DNA from: Ylistrum balloti
Lineage: Eukaryota
Assembly: GCF_031769215.1 (NCBI RefSeq)
Contig: NW_026782454.1
Location: 434,001 to 498,000 of the forward strand
DNA length: 64,000 nt
Direction: 5' to 3'
Below are positions 45,001 to 64,000 of this stretch, piece by piece. The number at the start of each line of letters is the position of its first letter. Within the stretch, counting starts at the first letter, position 1. The position numbers are program-made.

Positions 45001-48000
45001 CCATTTTTACTGAGGATGTTGGGCCTATTGACCTATTCAACCCTATTGTTTTTCGTCGCTGCCCGATATCCAATATGGCGGTTACGGGCGCCATCTTGAA
45101 TTTGCTTTCCGCTCATTATCTCAAGAACGACAACACCGGTGGTCACCATTTTCACTGAGGATGTTGGGCCTATGGACCTACACAACCCTATTGTTTTTCG
45201 TCGTCGCTCGATATCCAATATGGCGGTTACGGCCACCATCTTGAATTGGCTGTGGGGTATTGCCCGCGTTTGCGGAGCTATTTTTTAAAAATGAAAACAC
45301 GTTGGTATGAAATGCAAATATAAGGATTATTTATTTATTTATTTCGTTTTCTAATGTGCATATGAAGGATGTAGTTCCCAAGTTGTGACGCCGTCATCTA
45401 TTCAGACACACCCCACAAAACAGGTATTACAGTAACAATTTTACAGAGTAGTATCACATGAAGACGTTTCATAAACACGCACGATGAGCCATTTACTTCC
45501 TTTAACATACACAAGTAAACCTGGAACACCGTATTGCAAAGAACTTTAAGCTAGTGTTTCATAGAGTTTTAAACTTAGATGAAGACTGATAAAAAAATTC
45601 TGTCAGAACAACAAACATTTCATGAATGAAACACGTTTGTATTGTTGTAAAAACTTTAAATGTTTAAGTAAGAATTCACACTGTTCAGGTATATGATGTT
45701 TCTATCGCCGGATATCAACATCCCTTCATCCACAACCTATAGTATTTACATGTCGCAACTGTTTCGATCTTCAAGGGCTTATTTCCAATATCACTATTTT
45801 CATGCAAGATATATGCAATTGACAGAGAAAAAAAATCACATAACAAGTGGGTAGGCTGATAAAAATGATGCAGTGTTATGGTTGTCATAATGATAAGGAA
45901 GTGTTATGGTTGTCATAATGACCAGGAAGTGTTATGGTTGTCATAATGACGAGGAAGTTTTGTGGTTGTCATAATAACCAGGAAGTGTTATGGTTGTCAT
46001 AATGACCAGGAAGTGTTATGGTTGTCATAATGACCAGGAAGTTTTGTGGTTGTCATAATGACCAGGAAGTGTTATGATTGTCATAATGACCAGGAAGTGT
46101 TATGGTTGTCATAATGACCAGGAAGTTTTGTGGTTGTCATAATGACCAGGAAGTGTTATGATTGTCATAATGACCAGGAAGTTTTGTGGTTGTCATAATG
46201 ACGAGGAAGTTTTATGGTTGTCATAATGACGAGGAAGTTTTGTGGTTGTCATAATGACGAGGAAGTTTTGTGGTTGTCATAATAACCAGGAAGTGTTATG
46301 GTTGTCATAATGACCAGGAAGTTTTGTGGTTGTCATAATGACCAGGAAGTTTTATGGTTGTCATAATGACGAGGAAGTTTTGTGGTTGTCATAATGACCA
46401 GGAAGTTTTGTGGTTGTCATAATGACCAGGAAGTTTTGTGGTTGTCATAATGACGAGGAAGTTTTGTGGTTGTCATAATGACCAGGAAGTTTTATGGTTG
46501 TCATAATGACGAGGAAGTTTTGTGGTTGTCATAATGACCAGGAAGTTTTGTGGTTGTCATAATGACCAGGAAGTTTTGTGGTTGTCATAATAATGAGTTG
46601 TCATAATGACGAGGAAGTGTGGTTGTCATAATGACCAGGAAGTTGTCATAATGACGAGGAAGTTTTGTGGTTGTCATAATGACGAGGAAGTTTTGTGGTT
46701 GTCATAATGACCAGGAAGTTTTGTGGTTGTCATAATGACCAGGAAGTTTTGTGGTTGTCATAATGACCAGGAAGTTTTGTGGTTGTCATAATGACCAGGA
46801 AGTTTTGTGGTTGTCATAATGACGAGGAAGTTTTGTGGTTGTCATAATGACCAGGAAGTTTTGTAGTTGTCATAATGACGAGGAAGTTTTGTGGTTGTCA
46901 TAATGACCAGGTAGTTTTGTGGTTGTCATAATGACGAGGAAGTTTTGTGGTTGTCATAATGACGAGGAAGTTTTGTGGTTGTCATAATGACCAGGAAGTT
47001 TTGTGGTTGTCATAATGACGAGGAAGTTTTATAGTTGTCATAATGACCAGGAAGTTTTGTGGTTGTCATAATGACCAGGAAGTTTTGTGGTTGTCATAAT
47101 GACCAGGAAGTTTTATAGTTGTCATAATGACGAGGAAGTTTTATGGTTGTCATAATGACGAGGAAGTTTTGTGGTTGTCATAATGACCAGGAAGTTTTAT
47201 AGTTGTCATAATGACGAGGAAGTTTTATGGTTGTCATAATGACGAGGAAGTTTTGTGGTTGTCATAATGACGAGGAAGTTTTGTGGTTGTCATAATGACG
47301 AGGAAGTTTTGTGGTTGTCATAATGACGAGGAAGTTTTATGGTTGTCATAATGACGAGGAAGTTTTATGGTTGTCATAATGACCAGGAAGTTTTGTGGTT
47401 GTCATAATGACCAGGAAGTTTTGTGGTTGTCATAATGACGAGGAAGTTTTATGATTCCTTTTCTCTCTGATTTGAGAAGAACGTGATATCACTTACTTTG
47501 ATCGACCAAGGTTTACCTGGCGTGTGTCGTCGAAGAAGCAGGAGACGCTAACCCTTCCAGAACCCTGACTATTAACTGGCATACCAGGATACACTACTCA
47601 ACCATTAATGGAAGCCAACAGATAGTAAACACCATCATGAGCACCACTAGGAACATCACGTTGAACACGTCACCAGCTCGCCGTGACTCTGATTTCAGCC
47701 AAACTCCATGGTCAGTTTTTAGGAGCCTCCGTCTGATCAGCACTACAATGACCAATGTATTTAGGACCACCATCATCCCGATCATACCCATCCCGAGAAA
47801 GGCATAAAGGTAAGAAAACAGCTTACCACCGGCGTCTGTAGCAAACTGATTAAAGAAACACCAAGTTCCAGGAAACTGATGGACATTCTCGTTTATACCC
47901 ATTAAAGGTAGGCAAGCCAAGATGAACGAAAAATACATATCCCTGCCATTGTGATGTTAACACGACGTTTACCTAACACATTAGTGTAGAAAAATGGGAA

Positions 48001-63000: not shown

Positions 63001-64000
63001 TATTTAGGACCACCATCATCCCGACCATACCCATCCCGAGAGAGGCATAAAGGTAAGAAAACAGCTTACCACCGGCGTCTGTAGCAAACTGATTAAAGAA
63101 ACACCAAGTTCCTGGAAACTGATGGACATTCTCGTTTATACCCATTAAAGGCATGCAAGCCAGTACCAGTGCCAAGATCCCTAACGCTGCTATTGTAAAA
63201 CTCGCCCATCTTTTTCCTAACTTACTGGTGTAGAAAAACGGAAACCAAACCGCTAGAAAACGATCCAGAGACATTGCTGCAGCTAACATCGCTGACGTCA
63301 TTCCAGTAAAAATCAAAGTAAAAGACATAAAAGCGCACGAGATTTCTCCTCCGGTCCACGTCATGTTATTCACATAAGCGGAAATAGAGACCGGAAGTGG
63401 GCCTAAGAGACCCAAAAGGTCGGATAATGCGAGAGCTAGCACCAGCCGATAGAAAGCCCTCCATTTATGTCTTTGTGAAGTATGGATGAGAATGATCAAT
63501 GCAAGAATATTACCACTTCCTCCAAACAAAAGCATCATCGCAACCGGAAGTACAGGGAAATTCCTGCCAAGCTCTGGCGTTGTACAGTTGAAAGTACATG
63601 TCATGTTTATGGTATTCAAATGTAGAATATCACCAGTATTCATTGTTGTCATGGGCAACATTTCGTATTTCCTGAAAAAAAAAGAACAATTCTGCAGTTA
63701 GATCACAGACATGAGTTTGTTGTGAATTTGTGTAATTATGTTGTTTTGTACTCTCTCCTTATATTCCTGTTATGTTACACATTCTGTTTGCTGTTCCATT
63801 TTCAAGACAAAAATATTATTTCAATTGATAATTCTTTTCAAATGCTTTTTTAAGATAGTCATCACATTTCTGGAAAACTTAATTATTTTATGTATTAATC
63901 TGAACATGCAAAATAAAACTATTTTGACATCAGTTACAAAATGACGGCAGAAAATCTTATTCAAAGCATCTTCAGTGAAGCGATTAACATACCACAGAAA

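What the first reader, a model, noticed from the sequence alone, without database searches (positions are those of the whole stretch)
47603..63661. Patchwork gene conversion among three prostanoid receptors
Seen: A and B share ~250 bp with no difference (TM2 end to TM4) although their introns stop aligning within tens of bases. C is clearly diverged from B in the N-terminal half and in exon 2, but from ~63160 to ~62826 (ECL2-TM5-ICL3-TM6 plus 20 nt of intron) it differs at only ~11 of ~310 positions, with a sharp boundary at LAC(L/M)PLM. Inference: C is an old paralogue whose ligand-lid and G-protein-facing block was recently homogenised with B, giving chimeric receptors with shared ECL2 but different TM1-4 and TM7.
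Basis: partly seen in the sequence, partly recalled or inferred. Interest (0 to 1): 0.65.

Follow-up and report, generated by a model that had tools for sequence, protein, structure and literature searches.

The report
Gene conversion among clustered prostanoid receptor genes
Two intact prostaglandin-type receptor genes and one broken copy lie side by side, and a stretch of about 330 bases has been copied between otherwise old, diverged copies; this is a clean but ordinary case of gene conversion between neighbouring receptor genes.

Summary
The window has three two-exon prostanoid-receptor-like genes: A (minus strand), B (plus) and C (minus). Human EP4, IP, FP, TP and EP3 are the best solved relatives.

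- **A versus B:** they share a 251-nt run with no difference (8 of 20000 permutations reach it).
- **B versus C, tract:** they differ at 117 of 411 sites before the tract but at 11 of 326 inside it. The tract is B 53082-53407 = C 63151-62826 (0 of 300 permutations).
- **Synonymous and intron sites:** third codon positions differ at 6 of 106 sites inside the tract and 68 of 133 outside. dS is 0.098 in the tract against 1.62 upstream. The first 20 intron bases are identical, and homology then stops.
- **Internal control:** 26 codons outside the tract with identical protein still carry 15 of 78 base differences.
- **Exon 2** of C stays diverged (dS 0.8-1.1).

This is non-reciprocal exchange, that is interlocus gene conversion.

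- A is a pseudogene, with a 1-nt deletion in exon 1 and four deletions in exon 2, one removing the TM7 core.
- The tract in C is about equally close to A and B, and is older than the last A-B exchange.
- The direction of transfer is unknown.

Orthologues and reads could not be checked. This is a known kind of event.

The parts
52578..53387 (+). Gene B, exon 1 coding sequence (270 codons: N-terminus to end of TM6), intact
   Evidence: Open frame. Pfam 7tm_1 E=3.2e-35. Best solved relative is EP4 at 1.1e-34, with Y2.65, C3.25 and T-W-C-F of ECL2 aligned. The ATG and the GT donor at 53388 were read.
53388..56172 (+). Gene B intron (GT..AG, phase 0), holding a 34-bp minisatellite at 54121-55640
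   Evidence: Splice sites read; tandem repeat.
56173..56520 (+). Gene B, exon 2 coding sequence (TM7, tail, stop), intact
   Evidence: Searched on its own. EP4 is the best hit at 5.4e-06, with R7.40 and DPWIY aligned. Acceptor and stop read.
62846..63661 (-). Gene C, exon 1 coding sequence (272 codons), intact
   Evidence: Open frame; Pfam 7tm_1 E=1.5e-30; start and donor read.
61476..61724 (-). Gene C, exon 2 coding sequence (TM7 with R...DPWIY, tail, stop), intact and diverged from B
   Evidence: Open frame; acceptor read; 168 of 249 bases identical to B, dS 0.8-1.1.
47603..48411 (-). Copy A, exon 1. It differs from B at 24 of 810 positions and is broken by a 1-nt deletion between 47929 and 47928 (TM4), with a stop 9 codons later
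   Evidence: Two overlapping frames; gap column at B 53061; alignment.
44264..44527 (-). Copy A, exon 2 remnant. Relative to B it has deletions of 25 nt (removing the I-I-D-P-W-I-Y-L core of TM7), 12, 14 and 32 nt. Aligned bases are 197 of 212 identical to B
53082..53407 (+). Shared tract in B: extracellular end of TM4, ECL2, TM5, ICL3, TM6 and 20 nt of intron
   Evidence: Maximal chi-square segment, 11 of 326 differences against C versus 117 of 411 upstream. Helix map from hydropathy and the EP4 alignment.
62826..63151 (-). Shared tract in C, in inverted orientation to B and about 9.4 kb away
47583..47908 (-). The same tract in A (16 differences from B, intron bases included)
47934..48184 (-). 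251-nt run identical between A and B (B 52805-53055)
   Evidence: Permutation: 8 of 20000.
53277..53297 (+). 21-nt spot in ICL3 where the three copies differ most (B NHEGRAT, A DHGVWLK, C DHGGRVK)
   Evidence: 8 of 16 A-B differences of the tract fall here (2 of 20000 permutations) and 5 of 11 B-C differences (306 of 20000). Peptides.

Best explanation
**What is there.** The locus is a cluster of three paralogous, two-exon prostanoid-type G-protein-coupled receptor genes in alternating orientation. A and B are head to head, and B and C are tail to tail. B and C are intact; A is a pseudogene.

**What happened.** The genes evolve in part in concert through interlocus (ectopic) gene conversion that is confined to the exons. 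C is an old paralogue, with synonymous sites saturated against A and B. One non-crossover repair event replaced a block of about 326-337 nt with A/B-type sequence, or the reverse. The block runs from the extracellular end of TM4 through ECL2, TM5, ICL3 and TM6 to 20 nt into the intron. Later, exon 1 of A and B exchanged sequence again, which left 251-nt and 127-nt identical runs.

**Result.** B and C share the ECL2 lid, TM5, most of ICL3 and TM6, but have different N-termini, TM1-TM4 and TM7/tail.

**Shown:** the mosaic of distances, its sharp edges, and that it holds at synonymous and intron sites.

**Inferred:**
- the mechanism, namely double-strand-break repair templated by the inverted paralogue. 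The different minisatellite that fills each intron may favour such breaks; that part is speculation.
- the order of events.
- any functional consequence, for example shared G-protein coupling with different ligand preference.
For: **Family.**
- Pfam 7tm_1 matches all exon 1 pieces.
- The 14 solved relatives with E at or below 1e-20 are all prostanoid receptors, and exon 2 on its own also hits EP4 first.
- The Y2.65 / T-ECL2 / R7.40 triad described in PMC12107139 (passages) is aligned and conserved.

**B-C mosaic.**
- 11 of 326 differences in the tract against 117 of 411 upstream, with 0 of 300 permutations reaching the statistic.
- Third codon positions differ at 6 of 106 against 68 of 133, again 0 of 300.
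- Nei-Gojobori dS is 0.098 in the tract, 1.62 in TM1-TM4 and 0.81-1.14 in exon 2.
- Synonymous differences are 7 of 76 against 64 of 96, Fisher p = 3e-15.

**Internal control against protein-level selection.** A 26-codon stretch with identical protein outside the tract (GMTSAM...FFYT) has 15 of 78 base differences. A 57-codon identical stretch inside the tract has 2 of 171 (p = 8e-7).

**Intron and flanks.** The first 20 intron bases are 20 of 20 identical between B and C, then nothing aligns. Both flanks stay diverged, so this is a double-ended event.

**Each copy is its own sequence.** One search lists B-C differences inside the tract, and the A and B columns of the alignment show that each copy carries changes the other two lack. 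The tract in C is therefore not a collapsed copy of B.

**A-B.**
- dS is 0.018 in exon 1 against 0.125 in exon 2 (p = 0.007).
- The first 28 intron bases differ at 4 of 28 (p = 0.01).
- The last 130 aligned intron bases differ at 40 of 130, against 6 of 52 synonymous sites in exon 2 (p = 0.008).
- The 251-nt identical run is reached in 8 of 20000 permutations.

**Precedent.** Conversion between neighbouring chemokine receptor genes, including ECL2 of CCR5 by CCR2 (PMC2880985, passages; PMC2720389, passages).
Against: - No outgroup or orthologue could be fetched, so the tree incongruence that would clinch conversion, and its direction, is untested.
- No reads were available, so a chimeric assembly is not formally excluded.
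- For A and B, much of the lack of intron alignment comes from different minisatellites that begin 125-190 nt from the exons. A recent duplication followed by intron turnover therefore explains part of that pattern. The tests on A-B rest on few sites: 4, 6 and 4 differences.
- The frameshift in A lies between the two perfect A-B runs. That is awkward for a single recent B-to-A tract across the region. It must post-date the exchange, separate two tracts, or be a sequencing error.
- The ICL3 core, the most G-protein-facing loop of the block, is where the copies differ most. The 'shared signalling block' is therefore not complete.
Confidence: 0.8

Rival explanations
1. Selection alone: the tract is conserved between old paralogues because the protein block, or an element overlapping it, is under very strong constraint that also covers synonymous sites.
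For: The tract encodes the most conserved prostanoid motif (PGTWCF in ECL2) and TM6 with the toggle W. Residues in it contact the ligand (PMC10709307 and PMC12107139, passages). Antisense open frames of 93-101 codons overlap the tract in A and B.
Against: Synonymous distance drops 16-fold, from 1.62 to 0.098. Third positions differ at 6 of 106 against 68 of 133. An equally conserved protein stretch outside the tract has 15 of 78 base differences. The identity runs 20 nt into the intron. There is no Rfam match in the window. The tract does not fold better than shuffles (z = -0.09; the neighbouring 326 nt give +0.31). No antisense frame of 80 codons or more lies over the tract in C. The pseudogene A shares the tract too.
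Confidence: 0.03
2. Assembly artefact: the assembler switched between paralogues in the shared repeat, so the chimeric C, or the perfect A-B runs, do not exist in the genome.
For: Near-identical stretches of 100-250 nt in a region crowded with minisatellites are a place where assemblers err. No reads could be examined.
Against: The tract in C is not identical to A or B: it has 11 differences from B and 15 from A, some found in C alone. A chimera would need two switches within 340 nt, and the result would have to leave an open frame, correct splice sites and a copy-specific sequence. There are no gaps (N) in the window.
Confidence: 0.05
3. For the A-B pair only: a recent duplication of a whole gene, followed by decay of A and fast intron turnover through minisatellite growth and indels, with no conversion between A and B.
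For: Homology upstream of A stops 27 nt from a 44-bp array. Homology downstream stops about 125 nt from a 28-bp array. A and B still align in the last 140 nt of the intron and past the stop codon. A carries more changes of its own than B: outside the tract, B agrees with C at 7 of 11 A-B differences and A at 2, as expected for a decaying copy.
Against: Distances are uneven along one gene. dS is 0.018 in exon 1 and 0.125 in exon 2, and aligned intron differs at 14-31%, all in a copy without selection. The 251-nt identical run is reached in 8 of 20000 permutations.
Confidence: 0.25

Closest known systems
Gene conversion between the neighbouring chemokine receptor genes CCR2/CCR5 and CCR1/CCR3 in mammals
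   Same: These are also class A GPCR paralogues lying close together, with short tracts exchanged inside the coding sequence. The exchanges include extracellular loop 2 of CCR5 converted by CCR2 in Homo and Oryctolagus, and they give mosaic receptors (PMC2880985, abstract and discussion passages; PMC2720389, passages).
   Different: The receptor family differs (prostanoid), and the organism is non-vertebrate-like and unidentified. Here the genes have an intron and the tract crosses the exon-intron border. One partner is a pseudogene, and the copies are inverted relative to each other. Recurrence across lineages, shown for CCR2/CCR5, is untested here.
Conversion between a functional gene and its neighbouring pseudogene (for example the Gaucher disease gene pair)
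   Same: A broken copy stays nearly identical to its intact neighbour over an exon and can exchange sequence with it. The risk of importing disruptive changes is mentioned in PMC2720389 (background passage).
   Different: No transfer of a lesion into B is seen. The direction of exchange between A and B is unknown.
Vertebrate prostanoid receptors (EP1-4, FP, IP, TP, DP1)
   Same: The 7TM fold class matches. So do the ECL2 T-W-C-F hairpin motif with its Cys partner at 3.25, Y2.65, R7.40 and DPWIY in TM7. ECL2 is described as a lid over the pocket (PMC10709307 and PMC12107139, passages). From recall, not from a call: vertebrate prostanoid receptor genes also have an intron at the end of TM6.
   Different: These copies are only distant relatives (123 bits over 238 residues to human EP4). 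No subtype can be assigned and the ligand is unknown. At position 3.32, counted as +7 from Cys 3.25 as, A and B have F and C has L, where EP receptors have M or L.

Membership tests
Prostanoid receptor family (class A GPCR) | Rhodopsin-type seven-helix receptor domain | tested here: met
   Pfam 7tm_1: B exon 1 3.2e-35, C exon 1 1.5e-30, and the two pieces of A 4.5e-20 and 5.4e-08. Six hydrophobic helices in exon 1 and a seventh in exon 2.
Prostanoid receptor family (class A GPCR) | Closest solved relatives are prostanoid receptors rather than other GPCRs | tested here: met
   The top 22 distinct PDB sequences are EP4, IP, FP, TP, EP3, EP1, DP and EP2. The next family follows at 1.8e-11, against 2.8e-35 for EP4. 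For exon 2 on its own, all 12 hits are EP4, FP, EP3 or EP1.
Prostanoid receptor family (class A GPCR) | Carboxylate-binding triad Y2.65 / T in ECL2 / R7.40, and the ECL2 hairpin Cys paired with C3.25 (as defined in PMC12107139) | tested here: met
   In the alignments to EP4, the Y of ..itaYv.., the C of ..avCd.., T-W-C-F and the R of ..vmRla.. each stand opposite the same EP4 residues. C carries the same residues.
Prostanoid receptor family (class A GPCR) | Binds and responds to a prostanoid | not testable with these tools
   Needs expression and ligand assays.
Interlocus (ectopic) gene conversion | A tract of high similarity with sharp edges inside otherwise diverged paralogues, more than chance gives | tested here: met
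   11 of 326 against 117 of 411; 0 of 300 permutations; 0 of 20000 for the longest run.
Interlocus (ectopic) gene conversion | The similarity holds at synonymous and non-coding sites, so it is not protein-level constraint | tested here: met
   dS 0.098 against 1.62; third positions 6 of 106 against 68 of 133; intron 20 of 20; control stretch 15 of 78 against 2 of 171.
Interlocus (ectopic) gene conversion | Both flanks remain diverged (non-reciprocal, double-ended event and not a crossover or a fresh duplication) | tested here: met
   Upstream TM1-TM4 has dS 1.62. Downstream the intron is unalignable after 20 nt and exon 2 has dS 0.81-1.14.
Interlocus (ectopic) gene conversion | Tree of the tract conflicts with the tree of the flanks when orthologues or an outgroup are included; donor and recipient identified | not testable with these tools
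Interlocus (ectopic) gene conversion | The copies exist as assembled | not testable with these tools
   No reads. Indirect support only: copy-specific differences in each tract.

The most novel reading that the evidence does not exclude
The exchange may not be a one-off accident but recurrent, exon-limited concerted evolution kept by selection. On this reading the ECL2-TM5-TM6 module is held in common among paralogues, for shared G-protein coupling or for heteromer formation as was proposed for CCR2/CCR5. TM1-TM4 and TM7 stay free to diverge in ligand preference. The pseudogene A survives as a conversion partner that feeds variation into the live genes, and the odd multi-base cluster in ICL3 would be a trace of that. 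Breaks arising in the minisatellite-filled introns would drive the process.
Probability: 0.1. Interest if true: 0.5.

Novelty: new member of a known kind. Interest (0 to 1): 0.3.

Why it matters
For annotation and phylogeny, these genes must not be placed on a tree as single units. Exon 1 of C is a mosaic whose two halves differ 16-fold in synonymous distance, and copy A is a pseudogene that a similarity search would score as a good receptor.

For receptor biology, B and C are a natural domain swap. They have the same ECL2 lid, TM5 and TM6, but a different N-terminus, TM1-TM4 (including position 3.32) and TM7/tail. That could be used to ask which half sets ligand preference and which sets coupling.

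As evolution, it adds a prostanoid-receptor example from a non-vertebrate-like genome to a phenomenon already well described for chemokine receptors. My search for 'gene conversion' together with 'prostanoid receptor' found 1 paper, a meeting abstract book whose listed abstract concerns thrombosis; I did not open it.

Tried and rejected
- **Structure model.** A single-sequence AlphaFold model of B exon 1 was meant to place the helices. Its mean pLDDT was 47.7 and pTM 0.30, too poor to use, so no fold search was run. Helices were placed by hydropathy and the EP4 alignment instead.
- **RNA element as cause of synonymous conservation.** Rfam over the whole window gave 0 matches. RNA folding of the tract gave z = -0.09, and the neighbouring 326 nt gave +0.31.
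- **Further copies as an outgroup.** tblastn of both B exons against the window found only A, B and C. Other hits had E above 1.
- **GC3 as a hint to the donor.** The tract has 0.52-0.55, TM1-TM4 of B 0.48 and of C 0.42. This leans slightly towards A/B as the source but is too weak to use, and biased conversion would give the same pattern.
- **A finer mosaic inside the tract.** A-B are closer in its 5' part and B-C in its 3' part: 2 against 5 and 6 against 1 differences, Fisher p = 0.10. Not significant.
- **Literature on invertebrate prostanoid receptor clusters.** (listings) and the passages of PMC13644484 gave nothing that bears on this locus.
- One search failed because my coordinates were out of frame. 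They were corrected.
- **Not done.** A joined (spliced) protein model was not built or searched; each exon was handled on its own. Orthologue trees and read mapping were not possible.
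Full report
**What the window is.**
- The window has no N and is about 35% G+C.
- It is crowded with minisatellites: 17 rows with score 400 or more in 1-40 kb and 13 rows with score 80 or more in 40-64 kb.
- Open frames longer than 130 codons in the first 46 kb are almost all read-throughs of those arrays.
- I take it to be non-human. The receptor genes are only distant relatives of the human proteins (123 bits over 238 residues to EP4). Three such genes lying within 20 kb also does not, as far as I recall, match any human arrangement.

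**The genes.** There are three copies in alternating orientation.

| Copy | Strand | Exon 1 coding | Intron | Exon 2 coding | State |
|---|---|---|---|---|---|
| A | minus | 48411-47603 | 47602-44528 (bounds taken from its exons; acceptor not checked) | remnant 44527-44264 | broken |
| B | plus | 52578-53387 | 53388-56172 (GT..AG, phase 0) | 56173-56520 | intact |
| C | minus | 63661-62846 | 62845-61725 | 61724-61476 | intact |

- All exon 1 pieces match Pfam 7tm_1.
- The spliced models were not joined. Each exon was searched on its own, and the joined step was left out.
- For B exon 1, the 22 best solved relatives are all prostanoid receptors. EP4 scores 2.8e-35, and the first other family follows at 1.8e-11.
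- B exon 2 alone also hits EP4 first, at 5.4e-06.
- The alignments place Y2.65, C3.25, the T-W-C-F of ECL2, R7.40 and DPWIY opposite the same EP4 residues. These include the carboxylate-binding triad and the ECL2 disulphide described in PMC12107139 (passages).
- These are therefore prostanoid-type receptors. Subtype and ligand are unknown.

**Copy A is broken.**
- Its exon 1 lacks one base between 47929 and 47928. The frame ends 9 codons later, inside TM4.
- Its exon 2 has deletions of 25, 12, 14 and 32 nt relative to B. The first removes the I-I-D-P-W-I-Y-L core of TM7.
- Outside the tract, B agrees with C at 7 of the 11 A-B differences and A agrees with C at 2. A-B dN/dS in exon 1 is above one (0.031/0.018). 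Both fit a decaying copy.

**The observation, checked.**
- A and B align only from B 52553 to 53415, at 96.4%. They have 24 differences in the 810-nt coding sequence and identical runs of 251 nt (B 52805-53055) and 127 nt. Only 8 of 20000 permutations of the 31 differences over 863 sites give a run that long.
- B and C have 177 differences in the same 810 nt. The best low-divergence segment is B 53082-53407 = C 63151-62826, with 11 of 326 differences against 117 of 411 upstream. None of 300 permutations reach the statistic.
- The sliding count per 60 nt falls from 12-22 to 0-3, and rises to 6-8 only over ICL3.
- The 5' edge is the L/M codon in LAC(L/M)PLM. The 3' edge is 20 nt into the intron, after which B and C share nothing.

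**Why it is exchange and not constraint.**
- Nei-Gojobori dS between B and C is 1.62 in TM1-TM4, 0.098 in the tract and 0.81-1.14 in exon 2.
- Third codon positions differ at 6 of 106 sites in the tract and 68 of 133 outside.
- The locus supplies its own control. The 26 codons for GMTSAM...FFYT (TM3 to ICL2) give identical protein in B and C but differ at 15 of 78 bases. The 57 identical codons at the start of the tract differ at 2 of 171 (p = 8e-7).
- The identity extends into the intron.
- No RNA family matches, and the tract folds no better than shuffles.
- Because both flanks are still diverged, a crossover or a fresh duplication cannot produce the pattern. A short non-reciprocal copy can.

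**Refinements.**
- *Partner and timing.* In the tract the three copies are nearly equidistant in raw differences: A-B 16, B-C 11, A-C 15, intron bases included. Synonymous differences are 2.5 (A-B), 7 (B-C) and 8 (A-C). Most synonymous change therefore lies on the branch to C. The exchange involved the A/B lineage and is older than the last A-B coalescence in exon 1.
- *Direction.* Which copy gave and which received cannot be told.
- *ICL3 hot spot.* A 21-nt spot (B 53277-53297) holds 8 of the 16 A-B differences (2 of 20000 permutations) and 5 of the 11 B-C differences (306 of 20000). There C agrees with A at 5 sites and with B at 3. This is unexplained. It could be relaxed or positive selection on the loop, one multi-base event, or a micro-conversion from a copy outside the window.
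- *A-B unevenness.* Distances between A and B are uneven too. dS is 0.018 in exon 1 and 0.125 in exon 2, and aligned intron differs at 14-31%. This points to a later A-B exchange limited to exon 1. The counts are small, however, and different minisatellites begin 125-190 nt from the exons. Part of the 'introns do not align' argument is therefore satellite turnover.

**How it most likely works.**
- B lies inverted to both A and C, with homologous exons 4-9 kb apart.
- A break in or near exon 1 of one copy was probably repaired from the inverted paralogue without crossover.
- This mechanism is inferred from general knowledge of ectopic conversion. It is not shown here.
- The idea that the intron minisatellites seed the breaks is speculation.

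**Consequence.**
- B and C differ at 6 of 106 residues in the tract. They differ at 40 of 133 in TM1-TM4 and at 23 of 31 in the N-terminus.
- ECL2 is the lid of the prostanoid pocket (PMC10709307 and PMC12107139, passages). TM5 and TM6 move to form the G-protein cavity.
- The pair therefore shares lid and coupling helices but differs in other pocket walls. For example, position 3.32 is F in A and B and L in C, counted from Cys 3.25. The effect on function is untested.

**Comparison and novelty.**
- Conversion between neighbouring GPCR paralogues is well known, including ECL2 of CCR5 by CCR2 (PMC2880985, passages; PMC2720389, passages).
- A search for 'gene conversion' with 'prostanoid receptor' found 1 paper, a meeting abstract book whose listed abstract concerns thrombosis; I did not open it.
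- This is a new, clean member of a known kind.

**Left open.** Orthologue trees, direction and date of the exchange, the organism, expression of the three copies, and validation of the assembly by reads. Supplementary files of the papers were not consulted, and no claim here depends on them.

Noticed in passing
window 47603-48411 and 44264-44527 (minus strand): Copy A is a pseudogene. It has a 1-nt deletion in TM4 with a stop 9 codons later. Its exon 2 has deletions of 25, 12, 14 and 32 nt, the first removing the TM7 DPWIY core. Even so, exon 1 differs from B at only 24 of 810 bases.
   Followed up: yes
window 53277-53297 (B) = 62936-62956 (C) = 47693-47713 (A): A 21-nt cluster of differences sits in ICL3 inside the otherwise shared tract. 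It holds 8 of 16 A-B differences, and C agrees with A at 5 sites and with B at 3. The cause is unknown.
   Followed up: partly
window 45872-47450, 54121-55640, 61956-62639: The intron of each of the three genes is largely filled by a different minisatellite: 28 bp x 56 copies, 34 bp x 44 and 20 bp x 34. A fourth array (44 bp x 17, 48463-49220) starts 27 nt upstream of the A-B homology.
   Followed up: partly
window 1-40000: This part is almost entirely unrelated minisatellite arrays with periods of 7-81 bp, many 0.8-2 kb long. Their read-through frames make up nearly all long ORFs, and no other gene was recognised.
   Followed up: partly
window 51635-51864 and 59512-59743: A dispersed repeat of about 230 nt lies in inverted orientation on either side of gene B (84% identical). 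Shorter pieces lie at 5730-5808 and 50038-50092. It is probably a mobile-element fragment.
   Followed up: no
window 57683-58115, 58861-59273, 60004-60092: Between B and C there are a 214-bp unit present twice with G-rich GGGT/GTGG runs, a 41-bp array of 10 copies at 98% identity, and a (GA)44 microsatellite.
   Followed up: no
window 53183-53464 (minus) and 47502-47807 (plus): Antisense open frames of 93 and 101 codons run across the tract in B and A. C has none of 80 codons or more. They are probably chance.
   Followed up: partly
window 52553-52577, 48412-48436, 63662-63675: Just upstream of the start codons, B (..TTTAAG|GTGG) and C (..TTTCAG|GAAA) have acceptor-like sites, which suggests an unseen upstream non-coding exon. 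In A the AG is changed to TG.
   Followed up: no
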